From: an uncultured bacterium
GTDB lineage: Bacteria > Acidobacteriota > DATKUA01
Direction: 5' to 3'
Assembly: GCA_965602675.1 (NCBI GenBank)
Contig: CBFCZO010000007.1
Span: 4,240 to 68,239 of the forward strand
DNA length: 64,000 nt
Under the pieces are notes generated by a model. The model worked only from the letters and a program-made list of their open reading frames with translations, ran no database searches and was not told the origin of the DNA. The translations under genes and the position numbers were made by a program. Below are positions 10,645 to 64,000 of this stretch, one piece after another (the stretch's first letter is position 1; each line of letters begins with the position of its first letter).

Positions 10645-12804
10645 GTGAAAAACAAGTCCATAGCGGCGCTCCTTTTCCTCTCGGCTGCAATCTCAGCCTT
10701 ATTGCTGGTCTCCGGATGCGGCGGCGGTGAGACTTCACCGCTTGCAGACAAACCCGAGCGAATCAATGTCCTGTTAGTCACAATCGACACCCTGCGCGCC
10801 GACTATCTCGGCTGCAGCGGCAACGAAGACGTCAGCACGCCGCAGATCGACAGGCTGGCTGCCGAAGGTGTGCGCTTCGCTTTCTGTGTCGCACACAATC
10901 CGATTACGCTCCCGAGCCACATCAATATCCTCACCGGAACTGACGCAAGGATACACGGCGTTCACGACAATCACGGCTTTAGGCTCGGTCCCGAAGCGAT
11001 AACGCTGGCGGAAACCTTGAAAACCGGAGGTTATCAGACAGCCGCCTTCATCGGAGCATTCGTCCTCGACAGGCAATTCGGCCTGGAACAGGGTTTCGAC
11101 CTATATGACGACAATCTCGAAACCGGCTCCCAGGTCCTCCTGCTTGGGCAGGAAAGGCGGGCGGAGGCAGTTGTGACCCCGGCAATTGAATGGATAGCAG
11201 GCCACGTGCAAAGACCGTGGTTTGTCTGGGTCCACCTCTATGATCCGCACGCTCCTTATACGCCACCAGCCCCCTTCGACGAGGAATTCGCATCGAATCC
11301 GTATGCCGGCGAAATAAGTTACACGGACGCAGCTCTGGGAAAACTGCTCGACTACCTGAGAAGCATAAACCTGCTCGACAACACCTTGCTGGTTCTCACC
11401 GGCGACCACGGCGAGGGTCTCGGCGATCACGGCGAGTTGACTCACGGAGTTTTCGCCTACAACACGACCATCCAGGTACCTCTGATTATTAGAGCGCCAT
11501 GGCTGGCCCGGCCGGGGATGGAGATCGAGCGCCGCGTCAGGCACATCGACTTGCTGCCGACTATCGTCGAATCCGTCGGTGGACAGATGCCCGGCGCTGC
11601 TCAGGGTGAATCCCTGCTTCCCCTGTTGCGTGGCAACGAAGAGCTGCCTGTTCCTGACAGCTACTTCGAGGCGCTCAGCTCTTCGTTCGCAAGAGGTTGG
11701 GCGCCGCTGCGGGGCATATACAGCGGAGAATGGAAGTACATCGAGTTACCCCTGCCCGAACTCTACGACATGGAAGCCGACCCCGATGAAACCCGGAATC
11801 TTCTGCAAAACCGGGCCGGAACATCTCAGAGATTGCGAACTACACTGCAAGGCATGACGGAAGATACAGAAACCGCTGTGGACGCACACGTGAGGGAGGA
11901 CGAGGAAACTAGGCGCAGGCTGATGGCGCTCGGCTATCTCTCCGGCTCCCCGCAATCCCTCAAAAACGAATATGGCCCCGACGACGACCCCAAGAATCTG
12001 ATCGAGGTTGATGCCCGCATTGAACGCGCGGCTGCGGCCGCCACCTCCGGCGATCTTGACCGATCCGTCGAAATCTTTGAGGAGCTCGTCGCAGAGCAGC
12101 CCGAGATGGCGATCTCGTATCAACTGCTTGCTAACCTGCTGGTGGAGCTGAACAGGGAAGACGAGGCGATTTCTTATCTGGAGCGGGCTGCCGACAAAGG
12201 CCTCGGCGGAGAGGCTGTCCTCAATCAACTCGCCAGAATGCTGTTACACGCAGGCGAGAGCGACCGCGCCGTGCCGATGCTCGAGGAGTTGATTAATCGC
12301 AACCCCGATGATCTTGACTCCGCAAATGCTCTCGCCTCATGGTATGCCAGGGAAGGAAACGCTGCCAAGGCCGAGTATTTATATGTCAGAATAATCGAGC
12401 GGGGTCCTGCCTACACAAATGCCCGTAGCGGATACGGGTGGATGCTGGCCAGGCAGGAGCGCTTCGAGGAAGCGATCGAACAGTTCAATGCAGCCCTGCA
12501 CTATCAGCCCAACAATCTGATGGCGCTGCACGGCTGCGGCGTGGTTTACGAACAGACCGGTATGCTCGAGAAAGCAGAGGAATCGTTCCGTAGAGTTTTA
12601 TCGCTCAACAATATGCATCATTTCGCCCGCCTGCGCCTGGGTCTCGTTCTGGAGCGCCTTGGAAATCTGCAGGAGGCAAGGGTTGAACTGTCGCGTTTCC
12701 TCGAGCTGGCGCAAGGACCTGAATTCGAGGATGCTCGCAGGCAAGCATCCATTGCGCTGGATAGAATTAATCGTGACGGCTCTGAAAACAGACATGATGA
12801 TTAG
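10645..12804 (+). CDS. Sulfatase-domain lipoprotein fused to C-terminal TPR repeats
   Basis: Alkaline-phosphatase-superfamily sulfatase motifs (…TIDTLRADYLGCSGN… with the CxxR active-site context, and LTGDHGEGLGDHGE…H). The C-terminal ~250 aa are TPR-like. The lipobox is LLVSGC. The only available start is a GTG. Confidence 0.8.
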   Translation: MKNKSIAALLFLSAAISALLLVSGCGGGETSPLADKPERINVLLVTIDTLRADYLGCSGNEDVSTPQIDRLAAEGVRFAFCVAHNPITLPSHINILTGTDARIHGVHDNHGFRLGPEAITLAETLKTGGYQTAAFIGAFVLDRQFGLEQGFDLYDDNLETGSQVLLLGQERRAEAVVTPAIEWIAGHVQRPWFVWVHLYDPHAPYTPPAPFDEEFASNPYAGEISYTDAALGKLLDYLRSINLLDNTLLVLTGDHGEGLGDHGELTHGVFAYNTTIQVPLIIRAPWLARPGMEIERRVRHIDLLPTIVESVGGQMPGAAQGESLLPLLRGNEELPVPDSYFEALSSSFARGWAPLRGIYSGEWKYIELPLPELYDMEADPDETRNLLQNRAGTSQRLRTTLQGMTEDTETAVDAHVREDEETRRRLMALGYLSGSPQSLKNEYGPDDDPKNLIEVDARIERAAAAATSGDLDRSVEIFEELVAEQPEMAISYQLLANLLVELNREDEAISYLERAADKGLGGEAVLNQLARMLLHAGESDRAVPMLEELINRNPDDLDSANALASWYAREGNAAKAEYLYVRIIERGPAYTNARSGYGWMLARQERFEEAIEQFNAALHYQPNNLMALHGCGVVYEQTGMLEKAEESFRRVLSLNNMHHFARLRLGLVLERLGNLQEARVELSRFLELAQGPEFEDARRQASIALDRINRDGSENRHDD

Positions 12805-31164: not shown

Positions 31165-31212
31165 CGGAAAAAATAACAAGCTCCACTCTTATTAAGAGTG
31201 GAGCTTTTGTTA
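31165..31212. terminator. Bidirectional intrinsic terminator between convergent genes
   Basis: Perfect 13-bp stem AAGCTCCACTCTT-atta-AAGAGTGGAGCTT, flanked by an A-run on the left and TTGTT on the right. Confidence 0.75.
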
Positions 31213-47531: not shown

Positions 47532-48290
47532 ATGCCGCCGACACACGAAGCAATTGATCGCGTGATGAAGAAACTCCGACTGGAAACACCACTGGTTGCC
47601 ATCTACGACGCTTCCCCGTCGGATGAGTTCGCTCCCATGCTGAAGGCCAAGGGACACGCGTGCTGTTTCGCCTTCTATAAGAGCTGGCTGGACGGCGAAA
47701 CAGTCGCTTTCGTCAAAGCCCCTGAGGAGAGTAATGATTTTGCCGAGCCGACCCACGGCTGCCCCGGCGCACAGCGGGCGCTCGGCCTGACGAAGGATTA
47801 CCCTCCCTTCATGGCTCATTTCCTTACAGACGGTGTGGGCGCACCCATGGGAGAGGGCCTGATGGCCACCCCTGAGCTGGCGCAGGAATTCCTCGACCGG
47901 GCGGTTGCGCCGGAGGTTTCCGGCGATTCAGTTTTGATCGGCCCGCTAAAGCTTGACCAGTGGGACAAAGTCAGGAGTGTGACATTCCTCGTCGACGCCG
48001 ACCGCCTCTCAGCCGTGATGCGCCTGGCCGGATTCTGGTCGTCAGATCCGGATCTCGTCTCTGCGCCCTTCTCATCGGGTTGCGGGCTCCTCTGGCGCGA
48101 CCTGATAAACCAGGAACGCGACAGGCCGCTGATCGGCTGCACAGATATGGCAATGCGCAAATACCTGCCGCCGGAGATCCTTTGCCTGACCGTCACGCCA
48201 CAGCGCTTCGAGCAGATGATGACAATCCCGGATGGCTCATTCCTCGACAAAACGTGGTGGAACGAGCTGATGGACAGCCGCGGCCTCTGA
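47532..48290 (+). CDS. Hypothetical protein (possibly DUF169-like)
   Basis: 252 aa. A GGGAGGAG ribosome-binding site precedes the ATG. No confident family was recognised. Confidence 0.5.
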   Translation: MPPTHEAIDRVMKKLRLETPLVAIYDASPSDEFAPMLKAKGHACCFAFYKSWLDGETVAFVKAPEESNDFAEPTHGCPGAQRALGLTKDYPPFMAHFLTDGVGAPMGEGLMATPELAQEFLDRAVAPEVSGDSVLIGPLKLDQWDKVRSVTFLVDADRLSAVMRLAGFWSSDPDLVSAPFSSGCGLLWRDLINQERDRPLIGCTDMAMRKYLPPEILCLTVTPQRFEQMMTIPDGSFLDKTWWNELMDSRGL

Positions 48291-54063: not shown

Positions 54064-54576
54064 TTATCTGAGCACAAACTCCCACGCACAATGGTATTCC
54101 GGCGGGTGAGGATCGGGCGGGCACGTGAGACAGCGCGTCCGGAAGCGCGGATCGATTGTCGATGCAAAGGTAGTGTACTCGACTATGCCCACCTCCTTGC
54201 ACGGAAACGGCTCCAGGCCCTTGCGCTCACGGGCTGACTGCACCCGGCAATTGTTCATCGTCAGAATCACGGTTTTGTCGTCGACGACCTCTATTGTCTG
54301 TACGTTGATGAATGAATAAAGGCGACGGTCGAGAGCCTTAGCAAGAGCGTCAACTCCACCGCCTTCCGGTATCTCGTGACGCTTCATGATTCTCCCGGCT
54401 TCAATCGGCGAAAACCGCCCCCACGCTTCCTTGTCGAGATCGATGGCATCCCTTATTCCAAAGCGGCCTTCAACAGCCTGAAACCAAAGGCCGTCGTGCG
54501 CGAGCCACAGCTTCGCGGCATCGGCAAGCATGTCGATGATTAGTTCCTTATCATATTTATCTATATCCCTGGCCAT
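54064..54576 (-). CDS. Hypothetical protein
   Basis: 170 aa counted from the internal ATG at 54576. No family was recognised. Confidence 0.5.
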   Translation of the reverse strand: MARDIDKYDKELIIDMLADAAKLWLAHDGLWFQAVEGRFGIRDAIDLDKEAWGRFSPIEAGRIMKRHEIPEGGGVDALAKALDRRLYSFINVQTIEVVDDKTVILTMNNCRVQSARERKGLEPFPCKEVGIVEYTTFASTIDPRFRTRCLTCPPDPHPPEYHCAWEFVLR

Positions 54577-54730
54577 GAATCCCCCCGTTAAAAAGGCGTG
54601 TTGGTTCTTCTCCCTGCCAATATTAGCGGAACCGGGTAGGGATATGAAGTGCGATCCGACTCGACGTTGACAGCAATGCATGTTTCTGCGTACTTTGCAC
54701 TCAATCCAACATCAACAGTGAGGGGGCACG

Positions 54731-55960
54731 ATGGCGCGATCCTACGAATATCTCATAATCGGAGCAGGCCTGGCAGGGCACAATGCCGCTGTTGAAATTC
54801 GGGAGCGGGATAGCGGCTCAACCCTGGCGATAGTCGGCGCCGAACCCCACCGTCCTTATAACCGCCCCCCCCTCAGCAAGGCCCTACTAACCGGACAAGC
54901 GCCGGAGGACAGCGTTTATATCGAAAAGAGCGAATTCTATCAGAGCAAGGGCATCGAGCTGATTCCCGGCACCACAGCATCTGCTCTCGACGCAGCAATA
55001 AAGACGGTTTTTCTTTCAGACGGCCGGGAACTGGAATATGGCAAATTGCTGGTTGCGACGGGCGGTAACGCCCGGCAACTAAATATTCCGGGGTGGGAAC
55101 TAACAGGCGTATTCACTCTTCGGAACCTGGAAGACTCACTGGCGATCAAAGCAGCAGCGGTGAATGCGGAGGGCGTCGTGGTAATCGGGGGAGGCTTTGT
55201 GGGAGCGGAGACCGCGTCCTCATTAACGGAGAGCGGCCGCAGAGTCAGCATGATCTTTCCGGAACAAGCTGTTCTTGGGAGGCTGTTGCCCCAGGATTTC
55301 GGCCTGTTCCTCAATGAAGTCTATCGAGATCGAGGTGTCGAAATTCTCGCCGCCGATTCAGTTGTTGCTTTCGAGGGAGACGATAGGGTGAAACGCGTGA
55401 GAACCGAAAGCGGGAAAGTCGTCGACTGCGATCTGGTGGTGGTCGGAGCCGGAATAGAGTTACAAACCGCCTTCACACGAGATGCGCTGGCTACCGATCG
55501 ACGCGGCGCCGTGATAACCGACGACCACCTGCGCAGCAGCGCAGAGAGTGTCTGGGCTGCCGGCGATATCGCCTCATACTACGATAGGCTATACCAGCGG
55601 CAAATGCGATTCGAGCACTGGAGCACTGCGATGAATCAGGGCAAGAACGCCGGCGCAGCGATGGCGGGCGATCCGCAGCCCTTCACCTCACCGGCCTACT
55701 TCTTCTCCGTCCTCTTCGGGATGTTTATCCAAATCGGCGGAAATTTCGAGCCGGAAGATATCTCAAGGCGAGGAAATCCGGATGAAAAAACTGTGGGCTA
55801 TTACTCTTTCCACGAGGGCGTAATCGAGGGCTACACCGTTCTGGGAAGACCCCAAGAGGAGGAAAAGGTTATTCAACGGTTGATCCTGGACAGGCGAAGA
55901 AAAGAGGAATTGGCTGAAGCGCTGGCCGATGAAAACCGTGATCTCAGTACTCTGATTTGA
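54731..55960 (+). CDS. FAD/NAD(P)-binding pyridine nucleotide-disulfide oxidoreductase (ferredoxin-reductase / AIF-like)
   Basis: N-terminal YEYLIIGAGLAGHNAA and a second Rossmann fold (VVIGGGFVGAE). Confidence 0.8.
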   Translation: MARSYEYLIIGAGLAGHNAAVEIRERDSGSTLAIVGAEPHRPYNRPPLSKALLTGQAPEDSVYIEKSEFYQSKGIELIPGTTASALDAAIKTVFLSDGRELEYGKLLVATGGNARQLNIPGWELTGVFTLRNLEDSLAIKAAAVNAEGVVVIGGGFVGAETASSLTESGRRVSMIFPEQAVLGRLLPQDFGLFLNEVYRDRGVEILAADSVVAFEGDDRVKRVRTESGKVVDCDLVVVGAGIELQTAFTRDALATDRRGAVITDDHLRSSAESVWAAGDIASYYDRLYQRQMRFEHWSTAMNQGKNAGAAMAGDPQPFTSPAYFFSVLFGMFIQIGGNFEPEDISRRGNPDEKTVGYYSFHEGVIEGYTVLGRPQEEEKVIQRLILDRRRKEELAEALADENRDLSTLI

Positions 55961-56026: not shown

Positions 56027-56635
56027 TCAAGGCTTAGTCCATATATTTTTCAGAAGTGTATCGCTGGCACTTTTCAGAAGCTCGTTTTCATCCTGCTCCG
56101 GGTTGATCCGTATCTTCATAACCGCCCCGATCATGAACACCAGGATATGGAGCGCGATCAGTTTTCGATCAACATCGCTCCTGATCTCGCCGGCCTTCTG
56201 GCCTTTCTCAATGATCGTCTCAAAAACTTCAAGGAATCTGGCATGGGACTTCTTATAGACATCTCGTATCCTTTCGTCTCGCAGGCTTTCAACATAGAGT
56301 TCCAGATCGATATGACCGTAGTACTTGGCCGCCCAAACCGAATAAATCGAAAGGAAATAATTGATAACCTTTAATAAAGCCTCCCGTGCGCTCTCGATCC
56401 TCTCCACTAGGCTAAACAGCTCTTCTTTCTCTTTGTTGATCCACCTGCTCAGGGCCAGCATAATGTCGTTCTTTCCCTTGAAGTAGTTGTAGACTGCGCC
56501 TGTGCTCAGCCCTGCTTCACCGCTGATGTCGGCAATCGTAGTGTTGAAGAAACCGTTTCTAAGGAAGCATACGTCGGCCGCTCGAAGGATTTGTTCTTTC
56601 CTGTTTTGGATATGCGAATCCGAAACTTTGGGCAC
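56027..56635 (-). CDS. TetR/AcrR family transcriptional regulator
   Basis: N-terminal helix-turn-helix (…FNTTIADISGEAGLSTGAVYNYFKGK…). Confidence 0.85.
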   Translation of the reverse strand: MPKVSDSHIQNRKEQILRAADVCFLRNGFFNTTIADISGEAGLSTGAVYNYFKGKNDIMLALSRWINKEKEELFSLVERIESAREALLKVINYFLSIYSVWAAKYYGHIDLELYVESLRDERIRDVYKKSHARFLEVFETIIEKGQKAGEIRSDVDRKLIALHILVFMIGAVMKIRINPEQDENELLKSASDTLLKNIWTKP

Positions 56636-56829: not shown

Positions 56830-57861
56830 TCAACCCGAATGGATCTCGACAATATCCTCGTCGACCAACTCGTAATCCTTGTTTACCAGCTGCCCGTCGA
56901 ACTTGCCGGAGCCCCACACCTTCGCCGTCTTCAAAGAGCCGGCGATATCCTTGTGAATTGCCTCGGCCAGGTCGAAGAGTGTGTCACCCCGGTGCAGCAC
57001 GAACGGATTTTCCTTATCGGGAGCCTTGCCGGGAGCCTTTGTGTAGACCCGCAGCAGAGAGAGCATTTCGAACACTGAGCGCTTAAGACGGTCGAGGCTG
57101 TCCTCGTCCACACTGGAGACTTTCTGAATCTCGAATAAATCTCCGTAAAACTCCTTGAAAATCTCAAGATTATCCTCAGCGTTGGGTAAATCCATCTTGT
57201 TGGCGACTATTATTGCCTTGAGGGGTTCAACCCCCACCGCCAGATTCTCGGGCTCGTCATGCCCGAAGAGCACTACTTTGTGCTCTTTCAGTATTCTCAG
57301 TGTCTCTTCGTACTGGCTGAGAATATCGTCGTTACGGGCCGAAAGCACGAGCAACGCCGCATCCGCCACCCTGACGATCTGCGGCAGCCAGCTCTCGATA
57401 TAACCTTTGGCAACCGGCGGAAGGTCGATAAGCTGGATCTGCACGTTCTCGTACAGCATCATACCCGGGAGCGGCAAGCGCGTGGTGAAGGGATAATCCG
57501 CTACCTGGGGTTCCGCATTGGTGAGACAGGCCAGCAACTCCGACTTACCGGAGTTCGGCGGGCCGACGAGTACCACCTGCCCCTCCCCGCATTTCTTGAC
57601 GTAAATCCCGCCGCTTTTCCGGGGACTGCCCTTGCGGGCCTGTTCCTTGCGCATTCTGGAAATGCGGCGCTTGATGTCGGCCTGCATCTTCTCCGTTCCC
57701 TTGTGCTTGGGAATCGAACGGAGCATTTCCTGCAAGGCCGCCATCTTCTCGGCAGAGGACGTTGCGGACTTGAATTGCTTTTCCGCCGCGAAGAACTCAG
57801 GTGTAAGATTCGCCGGCAACCCAAACCTCCGGGAGGGACGTTCGAGAATGTAGATCAACAA
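56830..57861 (-). CDS. DRG/Obg-like GTPase with C-terminal TGS domain (COG1163-like)
   Basis: G1 motif VVLVGPPNSGKSELL and G2/G3 region …YPFTTRLP…IQLIDLPP…. The C-terminal TGS-like end is …KVWGSGKFDGQLVNKDYELVDEDIVEI. Confidence 0.7.
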   Translation of the reverse strand: MLIYILERPSRRFGLPANLTPEFFAAEKQFKSATSSAEKMAALQEMLRSIPKHKGTEKMQADIKRRISRMRKEQARKGSPRKSGGIYVKKCGEGQVVLVGPPNSGKSELLACLTNAEPQVADYPFTTRLPLPGMMLYENVQIQLIDLPPVAKGYIESWLPQIVRVADAALLVLSARNDDILSQYEETLRILKEHKVVLFGHDEPENLAVGVEPLKAIIVANKMDLPNAEDNLEIFKEFYGDLFEIQKVSSVDEDSLDRLKRSVFEMLSLLRVYTKAPGKAPDKENPFVLHRGDTLFDLAEAIHKDIAGSLKTAKVWGSGKFDGQLVNKDYELVDEDIVEIHSG

Positions 57862-57927
57862 GTGTACACGACTCTAACGGAATTATAGCACCTTCGGCGA
57901 GGACTTACCCAGAGGCTTGATTACTAT

Positions 57928-60468
57928 TCAGTCCAACAAATCTAGCAGGTCGGGTACGAATTGCTTCAACATCTTTCTCGTGCGGCTGCTGAGGTAGTGG
58001 CGTAAAGCAAGGAATACGCTTTCATCCTCGAGGCCGAGTAATTCGCTCCATCGATCGGCAAACGACGGCACTGGAGGCAGCGAGATAAGATGGGCCAGGC
58101 GAATGGCTGCCGGCTGCAAGTTATCGTAGATGAAGGCCTTCATTTCATCGAGTATGTCGTCGAATCCATGCGCCGCGGCACCAGAGGTTACCAGTGCGAC
58201 CATTTCGAGATAATCGCCTGCGCACTCACGTGTAATGGTAACCGCCAGAGATTTTCTCAGCTCCTCCCAGGCGCTTCGCGTCTCATCTTGAGGAGGAGGA
58301 GAGTCGGATACGCGTGGAGGCTCATGCATCAACTCTATCACAAACGAATCGAACACTTGCCTGGCCCTCTCATCGCGCGATTCAAGCAGATGCTTGTGCA
58401 ATAACATTGCAGCCTCGATGATCGTCTTGCTGGCAGCGGGGTAGCGAATAGAAAGCATCGCAGGGTCGAGTTTTCCGCTCTTTCGAGCCCCTTCGCGCAA
58501 GTTCTTATCGCGCTGGATCATCCTCGAGGCTCCAAGCGAGAAAACGCTCCGAAGCGCCCTGTCCAGCTGTATCTTCTCCAACCGTCCGGGCTTGTCCGTC
58601 GAATACGTATTCTTCAGTGCCTTGACCAGCCCTCGCAGCTCGCGTTCCTCATCAGGCCTTCGGTTCCGAACCTTTTGGAGAGCCCCCCTGGTGCCGCGAA
58701 GTTCCGTGAGCAAATCCGCCAGTGCTTTCTTCTCCTTACCTGCAAGCGATTTCAGCCTGAAACCGCTGCGTTCGATTTCCAGGCAGAGCTCCTCCAGCAT
58801 TACGTCCAGGCGCTGATCGGAAACGTTGTTGAGGCGGCCGATCAAGGAAGCCGCCGATTTTTTACCTCTTTCGGAAAAGGTCGCGCGGCTTCCAAATGCG
58901 ACGGATAACATCGCTCGCGCAAGCCTGTGCTGCGCCAGCTCGCTGGTGCCATGAAAGATATTTCGCTTGAAATGGTTTGCAAAGCGTCCGAAGGCGCCGT
59001 CGTAGACTGCTTCCTCATAAGGCAGGTTAAAGGATGTTGCTTCATCAGGCATCCGGTCCCCGCCGCCGAACGCCTTTGCCAGTGATGCCACCGCTCCACC
59101 GCTGACGAGGTAAATGCCCTCTTGAATCATTTCGAGGGCGTGCGCGGGCATCTTTGTTTTTCGCCACCCGTAACGTTCGGTTAAAAGCTTGCCAAGCAGT
59201 TCCGAAGCTCCCGGGCTCTTGATTTCGGATAGATTCTGGATAATGCGGGTAAAGACGTACTCGTCCATGGTTCCGCGCTCGAGCAGAAGACGGATGTGCT
59301 TCAACTTCACCGCTTGCGCCAACTCCGATTTCTCCAGCGCACGCAAACCCAGGAGCAGAGCGCCTGGATTGAACGAGAGCAGAAGGAACTCGAACACCTT
59401 ATCCGATGGACTGCGGGCGATCACGTCGGAGGCGGTTTCATAGAGGTCGAAGTTCTGCATCTCGTCCAGGGCCACCTTCTGATACCGGAACGCAGTTTCA
59501 CCCGCTTCGCGCCGCTCCATCTTCTCAATCGTCCTGGCCTTGATCGAATATGCAGCCTCCGCCGCGATGTCGCCGAAGCTCACGTTCTCCATCTTGAGAA
59601 GCGCACTGAGCACAAAGCGTTTCGTGCCGTCCCCATGAGACGCCCGAAAGTCCTGGGAGACTTTCTCGAGGAACTCCTCGTCTACCTGCACAATGTCAGA
59701 ACCTTGATTAATAAGTGCTTCCAGCAGGCAGTAATAGACGGAAATCAGCCGGTTGGGCCTGATTTTATCCCCGCCTTTACGGCTCTTGAGTTGCTCCAGT
59801 CGGCGCTCAATAACAGCGACAACTCTATCGACGGCGTCTCTGAGGACGGACTCGATGTTGCCCTTTTTGAGCTTGCCGTTGCGCCGCAGGAACAGGAGTC
59901 CCTTGTAGACGGATGCCAGCTCCGGAAACTTCTCCACTTTCTTGAGGTTGAAGTGCGCCTCGAAGAAGTTGTCGAGCGTTTGAAGGTATCGATCCACAGC
60001 AACTTGTAAGGAGCTCAATTCCTTCGCTCGTCGCAGGACATTCTCGAGCACGAAGCGGTTGCTCTCGTAATATCTAAGCTCGTCGAATTCCCGCCAAATG
60101 TCTTTGAGATTGCTGAAGTGATTCTCGAGAGCAGTAACTAAGCGGCGGTCTCGAAGGTAGCCGCTGATTCGAATCAGATCGAAATCCTGAGCGTGTGCCG
60201 GACCGACAAGATTCTCCAGCACTATTCGGACGACCTGTTCGCTCGGCTCGATTGAACCAAAATCAGCCAGGTGGTTCTCGGCATCAAGCAGACAAAAGCC
60301 GTCCTTTTCGCTCAGGCCCTTGTGGATGAGCTTGAGGATTAATTGCCGCTTGAGCCGCCGAAATTCGTCTTCTTCAGATTCGGGACCGTCAGCGTCAGTG
60401 CTTAATAATTCCTCTTCGGAACTGCCTGGGGACTCATCCTGGCTGAGATTACTATTGTCTTTTTCCAT
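57928..60468 (-). CDS. Large (846 aa) all-alpha hypothetical protein with acidic N-terminus
   Basis: No recognisable motifs. The gene lies 66 bp upstream of, and co-oriented with, the GTPase gene. Confidence 0.55.
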   Translation of the reverse strand: MEKDNSNLSQDESPGSSEEELLSTDADGPESEEDEFRRLKRQLILKLIHKGLSEKDGFCLLDAENHLADFGSIEPSEQVVRIVLENLVGPAHAQDFDLIRISGYLRDRRLVTALENHFSNLKDIWREFDELRYYESNRFVLENVLRRAKELSSLQVAVDRYLQTLDNFFEAHFNLKKVEKFPELASVYKGLLFLRRNGKLKKGNIESVLRDAVDRVVAVIERRLEQLKSRKGGDKIRPNRLISVYYCLLEALINQGSDIVQVDEEFLEKVSQDFRASHGDGTKRFVLSALLKMENVSFGDIAAEAAYSIKARTIEKMERREAGETAFRYQKVALDEMQNFDLYETASDVIARSPSDKVFEFLLLSFNPGALLLGLRALEKSELAQAVKLKHIRLLLERGTMDEYVFTRIIQNLSEIKSPGASELLGKLLTERYGWRKTKMPAHALEMIQEGIYLVSGGAVASLAKAFGGGDRMPDEATSFNLPYEEAVYDGAFGRFANHFKRNIFHGTSELAQHRLARAMLSVAFGSRATFSERGKKSAASLIGRLNNVSDQRLDVMLEELCLEIERSGFRLKSLAGKEKKALADLLTELRGTRGALQKVRNRRPDEERELRGLVKALKNTYSTDKPGRLEKIQLDRALRSVFSLGASRMIQRDKNLREGARKSGKLDPAMLSIRYPAASKTIIEAAMLLHKHLLESRDERARQVFDSFVIELMHEPPRVSDSPPPQDETRSAWEELRKSLAVTITRECAGDYLEMVALVTSGAAAHGFDDILDEMKAFIYDNLQPAAIRLAHLISLPPVPSFADRWSELLGLEDESVFLALRHYLSSRTRKMLKQFVPDLLDLLD

Positions 60469-60632
60469 TCCTGCGCCCGGTGAAACACAGCATACAAAGC
60501 ACGTTATCAGGTCTTAATGGCCCTCGCTGAGTGAAAAAACGCTCAGCTAAACCCAATCATCACTTCTCCCCTAACCTTACTCAATGGCGATACTACCCCT
60601 CAACGGAATATATTTTAATCTTTATTTGCTAA

Positions 60633-60673
60633 TACTCTATAGTTTGTGGACAAATTGATGTAGTACTATAGAG
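60633..60673. promoter_or_regulatory. Perfect 10-bp inverted repeat (ACTCTATAGT-N21-ACTATAGAGT) in a divergent promoter region
   Basis: Located in the AT-rich intergenic region between the 846-aa gene (-) and the deacetylase gene (+). Confidence 0.4.
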
Positions 60674-60845
60674 TCCGATGGCAAGTAGTGGATAGAAAGA
60701 CACTGCCTCATATGACCAATTAATCCGTACTGTGTAATAGAATTGCTCTGTGGCGAAACAATACTTGAACAGTTCCGTATTTGGGCGTAGGTTCAACTCT
60801 GGAAGTAGTTCTCAACTCATCCCGCACGGGAGCAGCCAAAGGATA

Positions 60846-62570
60846 ATGATCTTGAGACAGAGAAAAACAGAGCTGATAAAAAGAACCATCTTCGCGTTCG
60901 TCGCGACCTGTTTACTATTCTGCACCGGTGTGATCGTTGCTCAGGACGATCCCGTGAATGCAGATTCCGGGGAAGTGATAGATATAGTCGGCCCTCAGCC
61001 TGTCGCTCCGGGCGATTACGCTTCTTTCCGGGCTCTGGTTCGAAACACCGGCAGTTTCCCCTGGAGCGCGGGCACGAAGATCAGGTACCGGCTTAAATTT
61101 CACAAAAAAACTGTGTGGCAGCACACCGAAAACGCGACCGGCACTCCCACCGGCGAACAAAGATGGGTGGAATTGCTGGCTCAGATGCCTGCAAAACTCG
61201 AGGACGGAATATATCGCTTCAGAGCGGATATCGTTAACGGGGATGTTCAGATAGCGCACTCTCCGAAAGCAGTGCCTGTTTATCTCGATCCCTTCGCTTT
61301 TTACGACGGCTTCGAACGCAGCAAGGCCGATCAAGGCGGATGGGGCTTCAAGCGAGCTGAGGGCGATAACAGGATCCGCACCACCAAGACGATGCCCTAT
61401 TCTGGAAGTCGAGGCCTAGAACTGACATTAAACGGCGGCGGCACCTCTTACCTGGAGTACGAATACCACGAAAGCGCCCCCGACAGAATCACCATCAGCA
61501 TGCGCCTACGCTTCGACCAGGCTGCGATGGATTCCGGCGGACCGATCAATTTCTTCACGATATTCGGCGCCGACCAGTACACATCCGCCTACTTCTATTA
61601 CTATCTCGAGAAAAAATGGTTCCAGTTGGCCTATCTCAAACCCGGTGGTGAATGGGAGCACTGCTGCATTGCCTACAGCACACTCGCGCCGGATACTTGG
61701 TATCACTTAAGAGCCACCGTCGTTCTCGGGAGCGAAGGCCGGTTCGTGCTTGCTTTAGACGGCGTCGAGATCATGCGCCGAAAAGCAGTTTTGGATTACG
61801 GCATAATCTCAAACCTGGCTGTCGGCCATTATCCCAGCGACACACGCCTGAGAGGCACGGTGAACATCGATGATGTCCGCTGGGCTAGGGAAGGCGTCGA
61901 TGCGATCGGCCTCGGCCGTGTTTCAATCACCTTCGACGATGGAGCCATCTCGCAGTGGATAAACGCAAGGCCGTTGCTTGACAAGTATGGTTACAAGGCT
62001 TCTTTCTATATAATTACCGAAAACTCGAGCGACCCGATCGATTCCCAAACGGGTGGTATTTATGCGATGGACAGGAATCAACTCCTGGCCTTGCAACAGC
62101 AAGGGCACGTGATCGGATCCCATTCCCACACTCACAAACACATGACTAAGTTGAGTGCCGAGGAGATCGAGCAGGAGTTGAGCATCTCAAGAACCACGCT
62201 CGCATCCTGGGGCCTACAGGTCAATTCATTCAGCCTTCCCTATGGGGACTTCAACGATGATGTCCTGACCCGCGTCGCTAAAAGCTATCAGTTTTGCCTC
62301 ACGACCCAGGAGGGGATCAATCCATTCGATGCCTTCAAGTCCAAGCGCAACCTGCTGCGCGTGGATCCGGCGACTAAATCCTTCAAGGAACTCAGGCGCC
62401 TTATTGACGAAACCGAGCGCACGGGAGGCTGGCTGGTTCTCTACTATCACTCAATCGGACCCGGGCACTCGGGCGATGCTTATTGGGTGAGTTCCAATAC
62501 TTTTGGCAGAACACTGAAATACCTTAGCGAGAAAAACATCAAGGTGATCCCCATCGAGCTGGCGCCCTGA
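60846..62570 (+). CDS. Secreted protein with C-terminal polysaccharide deacetylase (NodB-homology) domain
   Basis: …VSITFDDGAISQWINARPLLDKYGYKASFYI…GHVIGSHSHTHKHMT… matches the NodB motifs. Signal peptide. The ATG at 60846 is preferred over the GTG at 60750. Confidence 0.75.
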   Translation: MILRQRKTELIKRTIFAFVATCLLFCTGVIVAQDDPVNADSGEVIDIVGPQPVAPGDYASFRALVRNTGSFPWSAGTKIRYRLKFHKKTVWQHTENATGTPTGEQRWVELLAQMPAKLEDGIYRFRADIVNGDVQIAHSPKAVPVYLDPFAFYDGFERSKADQGGWGFKRAEGDNRIRTTKTMPYSGSRGLELTLNGGGTSYLEYEYHESAPDRITISMRLRFDQAAMDSGGPINFFTIFGADQYTSAYFYYYLEKKWFQLAYLKPGGEWEHCCIAYSTLAPDTWYHLRATVVLGSEGRFVLALDGVEIMRRKAVLDYGIISNLAVGHYPSDTRLRGTVNIDDVRWAREGVDAIGLGRVSITFDDGAISQWINARPLLDKYGYKASFYIITENSSDPIDSQTGGIYAMDRNQLLALQQQGHVIGSHSHTHKHMTKLSAEEIEQELSISRTTLASWGLQVNSFSLPYGDFNDDVLTRVAKSYQFCLTTQEGINPFDAFKSKRNLLRVDPATKSFKELRRLIDETERTGGWLVLYYHSIGPGHSGDAYWVSSNTFGRTLKYLSEKNIKVIPIELAP

Positions 62571-62627: not shown

Positions 62628-64000
62628 ATGAAGAGGGTTTCGAAATATGAAATAGCGCTCCCCCGCGAGGGGAAGATGCTGGTCGAGGCCTCGATTTTTG
62701 CATCCGACAGAATCAGGCTCGAGGAGACGGCGGTCCGCCAGCTCGCTGACGGCGCTTCGATCCCCACCGTCAACCGCGCCCTGGCCACGCCGGACATCCA
62801 CCAGGGCTACGGCGTGCCGATCGGCAGCGTGCTCGGCATGGAAGAGGTTGTCGTGCCGGCGGCTGTCGGGTTCGACATCAACTGCGGCATGCGCGTCCTC
62901 ACGACCAGTCTGCGGGCGACAGACTCCGGGCTTCGCCAACTTGCCACCTCGACTCGCCGAGACATTCCACTGGGCGAGGGCAAGTCAAACATCACAATGG
63001 CGAGGAAAGACCTCGAGAAGGTGCTGGCGCGGGGAGTCAGCGGCCTGCTCGATGTCAAGCACACGGGCCACAAAGTCTGGGACAGCTGGAACAGCGATGA
63101 GGAAAGATCGAACATTTTCCGCATCGAAGACGGCGGCTCCCTCGACGGCGAACCGGGCGCAGTCAGCGAGATTGCTTTCAGGCGCGGCGCCAACCAGCTG
63201 GGCACCCTGGGCGGCGGCAATCATTTCGTCGAGTTCCAGATCGTCGAGGAGGTGTTCGAGCCCTCGATCGCTGCGCGCTTCGGGCTTTTCCAGAACCAGC
63301 TTGTGGTGATGATCCACTCCGGCTCCCGCGGGCTCGGCCACCAGGTAGGCGGGGACTACATGAAGCTGGCTACCAAACTTACCGGCGGCAGGAGCCAGGT
63401 CCCCTATCTTGGGCTCGACACCAAGGAAGGGCGCCGCTATCTAGGCGCCATGCGCGCGGCCGCCAATTTCGCCTTCGCCAACCGCCACCTGATGGGCCTG
63501 CTCGTCGCCCGAAACATACGCTATTTCTACCCGGACGCCTCGATCCAACTCCTCTATGATGTTCCGCACAACATCGCCAAGTTCGAGCGCCACTCCAGCA
63601 AAATGCTCCTGATACACCGCAAGGGGGCAACCAGGGCATTCGGCCCAAGGCGGATGGCTGGCACAAGCTATGCCGATACGGGGCAGCCGGTGCTCATCCC
63701 CGGGTCCATGGGCACGAGCAGCTACGTTCTCGCGGGAGTCGACGACAACAGCCGCAGCCTCGACAGCGTCAACCACGGCGCCGGCCGCGCGATGAGCCGC
63801 ACGCAGGCGGGCGGCAAGTGGCGCAAAGGCAAGATGATAAAGCCGCCGGCGGTAAGCGACGAGGACTTTGAGCGAGCGATGGAAGGCGTCGTGCTCATTG
63901 CAGAGAGCATGCGTGGCATTAAGGAAGAAGCCCCGCAGGCATATAAGGACATCGACCTGGTGATGGAGACCGTCCTCGGAGCACGCCTGGCCAAGGCGGT
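62628..64000 (+). CDS. rtcB: RNA ligase RtcB (3'-truncated at window edge)
   Basis: An open frame from the ATG at 62628 to the window end. RtcB signatures are present (…DIHQGYGVPIGSV…GFDINCGMR…GGNHFVEF…HSGSRGLGHQV…NHGAGRAM…). The ORF is absent from the supplied track because it has no stop codon within the window. Confidence 0.85.
   Translation, partial: MKRVSKYEIALPREGKMLVEASIFASDRIRLEETAVRQLADGASIPTVNRALATPDIHQGYGVPIGSVLGMEEVVVPAAVGFDINCGMRVLTTSLRATDSGLRQLATSTRRDIPLGEGKSNITMARKDLEKVLARGVSGLLDVKHTGHKVWDSWNSDEERSNIFRIEDGGSLDGEPGAVSEIAFRRGANQLGTLGGGNHFVEFQIVEEVFEPSIAARFGLFQNQLVVMIHSGSRGLGHQVGGDYMKLATKLTGGRSQVPYLGLDTKEGRRYLGAMRAAANFAFANRHLMGLLVARNIRYFYPDASIQLLYDVPHNIAKFERHSSKMLLIHRKGATRAFGPRRMAGTSYADTGQPVLIPGSMGTSSYVLAGVDDNSRSLDSVNHGAGRAMSRTQAGGKWRKGKMIKPPAVSDEDFERAMEGVVLIAESMRGIKEEAPQAYKDIDLVMETVLGARLAKA

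What the first reader, a model, noticed from the sequence alone, without database searches (positions are those of the whole stretch)
56830..60750. Operon of an 846-aa unknown all-alpha protein and a DRG-like TGS GTPase, behind a perfect palindromic operator
A large protein with an acidic N-terminus and no recognisable domains is followed 66 bp later by a COG1163-type GTPase, a family rare in bacteria. The shared upstream region carries ACTCTATAGT-N21-ACTATAGAGT (60633-60673), facing the divergently transcribed deacetylase gene. A TetR gene lies just downstream. This could be an uncharacterised GTPase-partner pair.
Basis: inference. Interest (0 to 1): 0.5.

Follow-up and report, generated by a model that had tools for sequence, protein, structure and literature searches.

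The report
Orphan solenoid protein beside DRG-like GTPase

Summary
Both genes are real. The 846-aa protein (57928-60468, minus strand) is all-alpha and has no Pfam, NCBIfam, PHROG, PADLOC or PDB sequence match. A confident AlphaFold model shows only generic HEAT/ARM-like solenoid similarity. The family is tiny, about 20 sequences, all from metagenomes or Acidobacteriota MAGs.

The GTPase is DRG/Rbg-like (HTH, G domain, TGS), but it lacks the S5D2L insertion that defines DRGs. Its start is TTG at 57819, giving 329 aa and a 108-bp gap rather than 66 bp.

The pair is co-conserved in 10 of 10 distinct loci with enough sequence downstream, down to 35% identity. RtcB lies divergently upstream, directly or one gene away, in 10 loci, including this window (62628 to the window end).

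- The GTPase family is not rare in bacteria. Relatives at about 52-54% identity stand alone in Terriglobia, Blastocatellia and Armatimonadota.
- The palindrome exists at 60634-60674, but it is near chance level for the window and is lost in the closest other species.
- Every locus keeps a TGnTATAAT-type -10 element between the two genes, so the GTPase has its own promoter. The TetR gene occurs only in this species and the closest other one.

Best reading: a lineage-specific solenoid adaptor of a ribosome-associated GTPase, possibly linked to RtcB RNA repair. The function is inferred, not shown.

The parts
57928..60468 (-). Gene for the 846-aa orphan alpha-solenoid protein. It has a disordered acidic N-terminus (1-29), then 40 helices, and ends in the conserved tail VPDLLDLLD.
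56830..57819 (-). Gene for a 329-aa bacterial DRG-like GTPase (HTH 7-63, G domain 81-252, TGS 255-326). G1 is GPPNSGKS, G3 is DLPP, G4 is NKMD. Start revised to TTG 57819.
   Evidence: Pfam MMR_HSR1 + TGS. PDB phmmer best hits are Rbg1 and Rbg2 at about 2e-28, against Obg at 1.6e-14. AF2 pLDDT 88.2. Foldseek top hits are Rbg1 at 1e-19 and Rbg2 at 2e-13. Start codon set from alignment A3 and the DNA.
57882..57890 (-). Extended -10 promoter element TGCTATAAT in the 108-bp spacer, 62 nt before the GTPase start codon.
   Evidence: It is the only invariant block in otherwise unalignable spacers of 7 loci. TGnTATAAT (8 loci) or TTGTATAAT (2 loci) is present in all 10 distinct loci: nine loci, 24-65 nt before the start, plus the window at 62 nt. 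Stand-alone GTPase genes also have -10-like elements upstream. No terminator-like site between the genes.
60612..60617 (-). Putative -10 hexamer (TAAAAT) for the large gene, about 140 nt before its ATG.
   Evidence: It lies in a 30-nt block (AGCAAATAAAGrTTAAAATATATTCCGTTG) that is almost identical in L005/L014 (one position differs). More distant loci have TGGTATAAT, TGATATAAT or TGGTAAAAT 45-64 nt before the large gene. Inferred, not tested.
60634..60674 (.). Perfect inverted repeat ACTCTATAGT-N21-ACTATAGAGT in the middle of the divergent intergenic region. Each arm contains the 6-bp palindrome CTATAG.
   Evidence: Found. Present in the identical contig L013. Not conserved in L005/L014 and absent from all other loci. 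Near the chance level for the window. One arm overlaps the -35 position of the putative large-gene promoter. The other overlaps a -10-like TAGAGT of a plus-strand promoter-like site.
62628..64000 (+). RtcB RNA ligase gene. It runs off the window end (457 aa seen) and is transcribed divergently from the large gene.
   Evidence: Translation. Pfam RtcB E=2e-120. RtcB is directly divergent from the large gene in L001, L002, L007, L011, L016 and L017, and one gene away in the window, L004, L005 and L006 (L005 assigned by ORF size and synteny only).
60846..62570 (+). Polysaccharide deacetylase gene (probable start 60846, 574 aa), lying between RtcB and the large gene. It is a lineage-specific insertion and not part of the conserved unit.
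   Evidence: Pfam Polysacc_deac_1. At this position in L004 (Pfam) and, judged by ORF size and synteny, in L005; absent in L001, L002, L007, L011, L016 and L017.
56027..56635 (-). TetR-family regulator gene downstream of the GTPase. It is context only.
   Evidence: Pfam TetR_N. A 203-aa ORF sits at the same place in L005 (not domain-scanned) and nothing comparable in the other loci. No inverted repeat in its own upstream region.

Best explanation
The 846-aa protein founds a small orphan family of alpha-solenoid (HEAT/ARM-like) proteins found so far only in one clade of uncultured Acidobacteriota. It is encoded immediately upstream of a bacterial DRG/Rbg-like GTPase (HTH, G domain, TGS, no S5D2L) and next to a divergent RtcB RNA ligase gene. 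I read it as a lineage-specific binding partner or adaptor of that GTPase. By analogy with its closest relatives Rbg1 and Rbg2, the GTPase is expected to act on the ribosome near the GTPase-associated centre. The solenoid would supply the large protein-binding surface that stabilises, recruits or regulates the GTPase, as DFRPs do for eukaryotic DRGs although it is unrelated to them. It may also connect the GTPase to RtcB-dependent repair of damaged tRNA or rRNA.

Shown: both genes exist; the fold class; the DRG-like nature of the GTPase; strict co-conservation of the pair; the recurrent RtcB neighbour; separate conserved promoters.

Inferred: physical interaction; ribosome association; any link to RNA repair.

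The palindrome is most likely a species-specific or chance feature overlapping the divergent promoters, not a conserved operator.
For: - Pair conservation. The large gene is followed by the GTPase gene, with a 77-155 nt spacer, in all 10 distinct loci that have room: the window, L001, L002, L004, L005, L007, L011, L016, L017 and L018. The large protein falls to 35-37% identity across them.
- Shuffled surroundings. Downstream flanks differ among these loci, and several upstream arrangements occur (M1 peptidase and SelA; ABC2 permeases; deacetylase), so the core has survived rearrangements on both sides.
- Matching phylogeny. In a neighbour-joining tree of 119 GTPases, the 21 sequences at least 57% identical to the window's form one clade. 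It contains all 11 known paired genes and none of the 4 known unpaired ones.
- Unpaired relatives. GTPases at 52-54% identity in Blastocatellia, Terriglobia, Armatimonadota and one unnamed metagenome contig (L012) have no such neighbour and no RtcB nearby.
- The GTPase is DRG-like. Rbg1 and Rbg2 are clearly the best sequence and fold matches. DRGs work with dedicated partners that contact the TGS and G domains (PMC3510508; PMC8629797).
- Fold class of the large protein. The confident model matches only HEAT/ARM solenoids that act as binding scaffolds, such as importin-beta, CRM1, SF3B1 and TOG domains.
- RtcB lies within one gene in 10 loci. RtcB coupled to a ribosome-rescue factor, with TPR scaffolds added, has a precedent in RtcB-PrfH modules (PMC6514570).
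Against: - No direct evidence of interaction.
- The family is confined to one clade, so conserved gene order could partly be inheritance rather than selection.
- The GTPase keeps its own consensus promoter in every locus, so the two genes need not be co-expressed.
- Related GTPases function without the large protein in many bacteria.
- Only 9 positions are specific to the paired GTPase clade, and none is in the TGS domain, which is where DFRPs bind DRGs.
- The large protein has many invariant polar residues, for example QDFRAxxGxGTKRFVL and NIFHG. That would also fit an enzymatic or RNA-binding role rather than a passive scaffold.
- RtcB is separated from the large gene by an inserted gene in two subclades.
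Confidence: 0.4

Rival explanations
1. The large protein works with RtcB, as an RNA-repair scaffold or substrate-recruiting factor sharing a divergent promoter region. The GTPase is an unrelated neighbour kept by ancestry.
For: RtcB is directly divergent from the large gene in 6 loci and one gene away in 4 more. Unpaired GTPases have no RtcB nearby, so RtcB proximity appears together with the large protein. The GTPase has an independent promoter. Scaffold proteins are known to join RtcB modules (PMC6514570).
Confidence: 0.2
2. There is no functional link. An orphan gene of unknown role arose in one Acidobacteriota lineage next to a housekeeping GTPase gene, and the order persists by phylogenetic inertia.
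For: The family is restricted to about 20 sequences from one clade: 2 of 185,579 species genomes, 9 clusters among 1.84e9 representatives. Both genes have separate promoters. Few clade-specific changes are seen in the GTPase.
Against: The clade is deep. GTPase identity within it falls to 57-62%, close to the 52-54% seen between phyla. Both flanks have been rearranged repeatedly while the adjacency held in 10 of 10 loci. The large protein is under clear purifying selection, with 95 invariant columns across sequences as low as 35% identical and a confident fold.
Confidence: 0.25
3. One reading: one operon controlled by a palindromic operator in the shared upstream region, bound by the neighbouring TetR regulator.
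For: The 10-bp perfect inverted repeat is real and sits centrally in the divergent intergenic region. Its arms overlap a -35 position and a -10-like hexamer. A TetR gene is 194 bp downstream of the GTPase. No terminator-like site lies between the genes.
Against: The closest other species has the same gene order, with a TetR-sized ORF at the same place, and an alignable intergenic region, but it lacks the palindrome. No other locus has it. It is at chance level for the window. An N21 spacer is atypical for one TetR dimer (established knowledge). The TetR gene is absent from the 8 other loci. A conserved internal promoter precedes the GTPase gene.
Confidence: 0.07

Closest known systems
DRG/Rbg GTPases with their DFRP partners (yeast Rbg1-Tma46 and Rbg2-Gir2; human DRG1-DFRP1 and DRG2-DFRP2)
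   Same: The GTPase has the same N-terminal helical HTH domain, an Obg-type G domain and a C-terminal TGS domain. Rbg1 and Rbg2 are its best sequence and fold matches. Like DRGs, it is encoded with a dedicated, faster-evolving partner candidate.
   Different: It lacks the roughly 65-residue S5D2L insertion between G3 and G4. G3 is DLPP instead of DLPG. The partner candidate is an 846-aa folded solenoid, not an extended, largely unstructured DFRP segment with zinc-finger or RWD domains, and it shows no sequence similarity to anything known. DRG reviews state that bacteria have no DRG homologues (PMC8629797).
Stand-alone bacterial HTH-G-TGS GTPases (annotated 'ribosome-interacting GTPase 1' or 'GTPase' in Terriglobia, Blastocatellia and Armatimonadota MAGs)
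   Same: Same length (325-334 aa), same domains, same MPANLTPEY N-terminus, same DLPP G3 motif, and 50-55% identity.
   Different: They have no large solenoid gene upstream and no RtcB nearby. The window's GTPase belongs to a separate monophyletic subclade.
HEAT/ARM alpha-solenoid scaffolds (importin-beta/karyopherins, CRM1, SF3B1, TOG domains, archaeal HEAT-like TON_1937; GCN1 as a functional analogy)
   Same: An all-helical repeat architecture of similar size. These are the top and only structural matches. Karyopherins bind a small GTPase, and GCN1 sits on stalled ribosomes together with Rbg2-Gir2 (PDB 7nrc title).
RtcB-centred RNA repair modules (RtcB-RtcA-RtcR, RtcB-PrfH, Rsr/Y-RNA-RtcB)
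   Same: A typical RtcB (Pfam E=2e-120) lies next to genes for a translation-associated factor and a helical-repeat protein. This resembles RtcB-PrfH modules that acquire TPR scaffolds (PMC6514570).
   Different: RtcB is divergent rather than co-oriented, and sometimes one gene away. No RtcA, RtcR, PrfH, archease or Ro gene was called in the loci read, and no Rfam RNA was found in the window and five loci scanned. A GTPase partner is not mentioned in the one RtcB-neighbourhood paper I could read; the main survey was not held.

Membership tests
DRG (developmentally regulated GTP-binding protein / Rbg) family | Obg-type G domain with G1-G5 motifs | tested here: met
   G1 is GPPNSGKS, G2 is YPFTT and G4 is NKMD. 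Pfam MMR_HSR1 E=2e-16. One departure: G3 is DLPP, not DxxG. P134 and P135 are invariant in 43 bacterial sequences, whereas Rbg1 has DLPG.
DRG (developmentally regulated GTP-binding protein / Rbg) family | N-terminal helix-turn-helix domain preceding the G domain | tested here: met
   The AF2 model has three helices at 7-18, 22-35 and 43-63. phmmer aligns residues 34-156 of the 343-aa ORF translation (20-142 of the 329-aa protein) to Rbg1 residues 9-135, which include the HTH region.
DRG (developmentally regulated GTP-binding protein / Rbg) family | S5D2L domain of about 65 residues inserted between G3 and G4 (Rbg1 residues 176-240) | tested here: not met
   Only 71 residues separate DLPP (132-135) from NKMD (207-210). 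The model shows just one helix and two strands (one short) there. The Rbg1 alignment skips Rbg1 residues 136-250 against 58 query residues. Domain definition from PMC3510508.
DRG (developmentally regulated GTP-binding protein / Rbg) family | C-terminal TGS domain | tested here: met
   Pfam TGS E=2e-14, residues 271-341 of the 343-aa ORF translation (257-327 of the 329-aa protein). Matches the DRG1 TGS structure 2eki at 1.2e-10.
DRG (developmentally regulated GTP-binding protein / Rbg) family | Association with a DFRP-domain partner and with ribosomes | not testable with these tools
   The neighbour has no DFRP domain. Binding to the neighbour and to ribosomes needs experiment.
HEAT/ARM repeat proteins (the 846-aa protein) | Tandem pairs of antiparallel helices forming a solenoid, detectable by repeat profiles | tested here: inconclusive
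   The model is all helical and its best fold matches are HEAT/ARM proteins. No HEAT or ARM Pfam model passes threshold. Only RTP1_C1 (3 of 16 members, best E 0.004) and isolated TPR hits appear.
DFRP (DRG family regulatory protein) | DFRP domain, an extended helical segment that wraps the TGS and G domains | tested here: not met
   No Pfam or PDB sequence match. The protein is a large folded solenoid. A functional analogy remains possible.
TetR-operator regulated operon | Palindromic operator conserved with the regulator gene | tested here: not met
   L005/L014 has a TetR-sized ORF at the same place but not the palindrome.

The most novel reading that the evidence does not exclude
The solenoid is a bacterial functional counterpart of the eukaryotic DRG partners (DFRP and GCN1). 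It would dock the DRG-like GTPase onto stalled or damaged ribosomes and bring in RtcB to re-ligate cleaved tRNA or rRNA. That would be a ribosome-coupled RNA-repair and translation-rescue module not described before, built around a GTPase family that the DRG literature says is absent from bacteria.
Probability: 0.12. Interest if true: 0.7.

Novelty: new variant of a known kind. Interest (0 to 1): 0.42.

Why it matters
DRG GTPases are universal in eukaryotes and archaea and always act with a dedicated partner, but their molecular role on the ribosome is still debated. Reviews state that bacteria lack them (PMC8629797).

This locus shows two things. First, a DRG-like HTH-G-TGS GTPase without the S5D2L domain is widespread in Acidobacteriota and some other phyla. 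Second, one clade has acquired a large, unrelated partner candidate encoded beside it and next to RtcB. If the interaction is real, it would be an independent invention of the 'DRG plus partner' arrangement and a simple bacterial system for studying it. It would also hint at a link between this GTPase class and RNA repair.

The practical weight is limited. The organisms are uncultured, the family is tiny, and the function is inferred from gene order alone.

Tried and rejected
- Sequence searches on the large protein gave nothing usable. Pfam, NCBIfam, PADLOC and PHROGs had no hits. A profile against PDB sequences gave one chance-level hit, ScaR at E 0.49. Scanning each member against Pfam at E<=1 gave only scattered sub-threshold hits.
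- A full HMMER profile search of 1.84e9 representatives found no distant relatives.
- The palindrome as operator was rejected after alignment with L005/L014 and a window-wide count. A pattern search of the loci held at that point (15 of the 18) found it only in L013, the identical contig.
- The TetR upstream region has no inverted repeat.
- A sigma-54-like reading of the conserved block GGCAGTGTCTTTCT was considered by eye and rejected because there is no GC at the -12 position.
- Rfam (gathering threshold; window and five related loci) and tRNA (window only) scans found nothing. A first Rfam call exceeded the size limit.
- The Pyr_redox_2 oxidoreductase was considered as a PYROXD1-like protector of RtcB. 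It was rejected because it is near the unit only in the window, L004 and L005.
- Horizontal acquisition was considered. GC and GC3 of the genes fit the window.
- The Burroughs & Aravind 2016 survey of RtcB neighbourhoods could not be read; it is not held.
- Model coordinates are not exposed, so surface conservation and electrostatics could not be mapped.

Full report
**1. What is in the sequence**

On the minus strand, one search lists a TetR-family gene (56027-56635), a GTPase ORF (56830-57861 as listed) and an 846-aa ORF (57928-60468). On the plus strand lies a polysaccharide deacetylase ORF (60750-62570). Beyond it, an ORF that runs off the window end was found by direct translation. It starts at 62628 and is RtcB (Pfam E=2e-120).

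The GTPase start needs revision. All homologues begin MPANLTPE or MAANLSPE and are 325-334 aa long. The matching TTG is at 57819, with GGAGG 7 nt upstream. The gene is therefore 56830-57819 (329 aa), and the spacer to the large gene is 108 bp, not 66.

The deacetylase probably starts at ATG 60846. That gives 574 aa with a signal-peptide-like N-terminus, matching the 574-577 aa orthologues. The divergent intergenic region is then 377 bp.

**2. The large protein**

It has no hit in Pfam, NCBIfam, PADLOC or PHROGs. A word-indexed search of 5.8 billion proteins found only 16 relatives at 35-99% identity, all from metagenomes. A full HMMER profile search of 1.84 billion cluster representatives found 9 hits, all below 1e-30. 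So there is no detectable distant relative.

Among 185,579 species genomes only two carry it, both Acidobacteriota MAGs. A scan of JGI metagenome contigs added three loci. One of them, L013, is identical to the window.

The alignment (A1) has 95 invariant columns. They include WREQDELRLYES, KPNRLIAVYYCLLEAL, QDFRAxxGxGTKRFVL, EKMERREAG and NIFHG, and the protein ends in the conserved tail LVPDLLDLLD.

AlphaFold2 with this alignment gives a confident model (pLDDT 85.8, pTM 0.82). Residues 1-29 are disordered and acidic, and 40 helices follow.

**3. The GTPase**

Pfam finds MMR_HSR1 and TGS. Against PDB sequences the best hits are yeast Rbg1 and Rbg2 at about 2e-28, well ahead of Obg at 1.6e-14.

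The AF2 model (pLDDT 88.2) has a three-helix N-terminal domain, a G domain and a TGS domain. Foldseek ranks Rbg1 (1e-19) and Rbg2 (2e-13) above everything else, which starts at 2e-10.

DRGs are defined partly by a roughly 65-residue S5D2L domain inserted between G3 and G4, at Rbg1 residues 176-240 (PMC3510508). Here only 71 residues separate G3 from G4, which is the normal length for an Obg-type G domain, so that insertion is absent.

G3 reads DLPP rather than DLPG, and this is invariant in 43 bacterial sequences.

The protein is therefore DRG-like but not a canonical DRG.

The family is not rare in bacteria. 7978 proteins scored below 1e-10. The 120 listed are 48-99% identical and all carry the MMR_HSR1 and TGS families; nearly all are full length, apart from a few contig-end fragments. 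Named sources include Terriglobia, Blastocatellia, Armatimonadota and 'bacterium HR10'. A recent DRG review nevertheless states that bacteria have no homologues (PMC8629797). A 2026 preprint treats Obg as the bacterial counterpart.

**4. Co-occurrence**

I read the surroundings of ten distinct members of the large-protein family.

| Locus | Arrangement |
|---|---|
| window | RtcB, deacetylase, large gene, GTPase |
| L004 | RtcB, deacetylase, large gene, GTPase |
| L005 (same as L014) | RtcB, deacetylase, large gene, GTPase (assigned by ORF size and synteny) |
| L001 | RtcB divergent, large gene, GTPase |
| L002 (same as L003) | RtcB divergent, large gene, GTPase |
| L007 | RtcB divergent, large gene, GTPase |
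| L011 | RtcB divergent, large gene, GTPase |
| L016 | RtcB divergent, large gene, GTPase |
| L017 | RtcB divergent, large gene, GTPase |
| L018 | large gene, GTPase; the cut upstream gene has no Pfam hit |

In every one of these, the large gene is followed in the same direction by the GTPase gene, 77-155 nt later. L007 and L011 were reached from the GTPase side. Their upstream proteins are family members at 37% identity.

An eleventh locus, L006, ends just after the large gene, so its downstream neighbour cannot be seen. It has RtcB, then a 681-aa unknown gene, then the large gene.

The other flanking genes differ among groups of loci. They include M1 peptidase and SelA, ABC2 permeases, flavodoxin, M24 peptidase, Pyr_redox_2 with DUF6125, and HTH_20.

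By contrast, GTPases 52-54% identical to the window's have neither the large gene nor RtcB nearby. This holds in Blastocatellia (L008), Terriglobia (L009), Armatimonadota (L010) and one more locus (L012).

In a neighbour-joining tree of 119 GTPases, the 21 sequences at least 57% identical form one clade. It holds all known paired genes and none of the unpaired ones.

The large protein goes 77, 68, 65, 54, 46, 39, 38, 35%. The GTPase goes 85, 78, 79, 78, 76, 63, 60, 62%. So the two genes are inherited together, and the large protein evolves faster.

**5. Transcription signals**

The spacers between the two genes do not align across loci, except for one invariant block. It reads TGnTATAAT in 8 distinct loci and TTGTATAAT in 2. 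In the nine related loci it ends 24-65 nt before the GTPase start. In the window it is TGCTATAAT at 57890-57882, 62 nt before the start.

Stand-alone GTPase genes also have -10-like elements upstream, for example TGGTATAAT in L008. The GTPase gene therefore keeps its own promoter. No terminator-like site separates the genes, so read-through remains possible.

The large gene also has -10-like elements upstream: TGGTATAAT, TGATATAAT or TGGTAAAAT in L001, L011 and L007. In the window, a TAAAAT at 60617-60612 lies in a 30-nt block almost identical in L005.

'Operon' is thus too strong a word. These are two adjacent, co-oriented genes with separate conserved promoters.

**6. The palindrome**

- The window contains 7 distinct perfect inverted repeats of at least 10 bp with spacers of at most 40 nt. 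Shuffles give about 3 matching start positions.
- The motif has no other copy in the window.
- The closest other species (L005/L014) has the same gene order, with a TetR-sized ORF at the same place, and an alignable intergenic region. There GACTCTATA survives from one arm, and the other arm reads TCAGGTGTGC.
- No other locus has a comparable repeat.
- One arm overlaps the -35 position of the putative large-gene promoter. The other overlaps a -10-like TAGAGT of a plus-strand promoter-like site.

I conclude that it is a species-specific or chance feature. A regulatory role in this one species cannot be excluded.

**7. Interpretation**

Three things are firmly shown.
- There is a new, very small protein family with a solenoid fold.
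- The GTPase is a DRG-like bacterial GTPase lacking S5D2L.
- The two are strictly adjacent over considerable divergence, with RtcB as a recurrent third neighbour.

The most economical functional reading is that the solenoid is a lineage-specific partner of the GTPase. The GTPase's closest characterised relatives act on ribosomes with dedicated partners. Those partners contact the TGS and G domains, stimulate GTP hydrolysis and recruit the GTPase to polysomes (PMC3510508; PMC8629797).

RtcB adjacency suggests a connection to RNA repair at the ribosome. RtcB-PrfH modules with helical-repeat accessory proteins are a precedent (PMC6514570).

Several observations count against a strong claim.
- The promoters are independent.
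- The taxonomic range is narrow.
- There is no interaction evidence.
- Only nine residues are specific to the paired GTPase clade. Four cluster at 160-170, near where S5D2L would be inserted, and none is in the TGS domain.
- The many invariant polar residues of the large protein would also fit an enzyme or an RNA-binding protein.

I give the partner reading 0.4.

**8. Novelty and score**

The large protein is a new family. The arrangement is a new variant of the known 'DRG-type GTPase plus dedicated partner' theme, with an unrelated partner and a new neighbour, RtcB.

It is moderately interesting. It contradicts the textbook distribution of DRG-like GTPases and offers a testable pair. But the function rests on gene order alone, in uncultured organisms. 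Interest 0.42.

Noticed in passing
window 62628-64000 (+): An RtcB RNA ligase gene runs off the window end (Pfam E=2e-120). The ORF list omits it because it is open-ended. It is the conserved third neighbour of the pair in related loci.
   Followed up: yes
window 57882-57890 (-), and the same spacer in L001, L002, L004, L005, L007, L011, L016, L017, L018: An invariant extended -10 element (TGnTATAAT or TTGTATAAT) is the only conserved block between the large gene and the GTPase gene. This implies an internal promoter.
   Followed up: yes
window 57415-57426 (-), GTPase residues 132-135: The G3 (switch II) motif is DLPP instead of DxxG, invariant in 43 bacterial homologues. A proline at the glycine position has no backbone NH to contact the gamma-phosphate, so the switch mechanism may differ from other Obg-family GTPases.
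   Followed up: partly
window 57931-57957 (-), large-protein residues 838-846: The extreme C-terminus, VPDLLDLLD, is one of the best conserved stretches of the family (P839 and D843 invariant, V838 nearly so). An acidic and hydrophobic tail like this could be a docking motif. It loosely recalls the C-terminal tails of archaeal and eukaryotic ribosomal stalk proteins that bind translational GTPases; that comparison is from memory and was not tested.
   Followed up: no
window 60750-60845 (+): The listed GTG start of the deacetylase ORF is probably wrong. ATG 60846 gives 574 aa with a signal-peptide-like N-terminus (MILRQRKTELIKRTIFAFVATCLLFCTG) and matches the orthologue lengths.
   Followed up: partly
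L010 7001-8699: In an Armatimonadota MAG the stand-alone GTPase gene overlaps by 29 nt a downstream methyltransferase gene with PrmA/MTS-type Pfam hits. PrmA methylates ribosomal protein L11 at the GTPase-associated centre, so this may be an independent hint of a ribosomal role.
   Followed up: no
window 54064-55960; L004 11683-13561; L005 10587-12485; L018 5036-5554: A DUF6125 gene lies downstream of the GTPase in the window, L004 and L018, with a Pyr_redox_2 (ferredoxin-reductase-like) gene beside it in the window and L004. L005 has ORFs of matching size and position, and the cut 413-aa gene in L018 was not identified. The function of DUF6125 is unknown.
   Followed up: no
L013 and L015 (both from JGI metagenome Ga0114922): One metagenome holds a contig identical to the window (L013, 100% protein identity, palindrome included). 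It also holds a second contig with a 43% identical family member (L015). Two species carrying the family therefore co-occur in one sample.
   Followed up: partly
window 11635-11687, 31178-31206, 47663-47703: Other perfect inverted repeats of at least 10 bp: 12-bp arms with a 29-nt spacer at 11635; a 14-bp-arm hairpin with a 1-nt loop at 31178; and 10-bp arms with a 21-nt spacer at 47663. None was examined.
   Followed up: no
L006 3491-5536 (-) and L018 1-924 (-): In the subclade at 42-43% identity, an unknown gene with no Pfam hit lies upstream of the large gene. In L006 it is 681 aa and occupies the slot between RtcB and the large gene that the deacetylase fills in the window. In L018 the gene is cut by the contig end and RtcB is not in view.
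   Followed up: no
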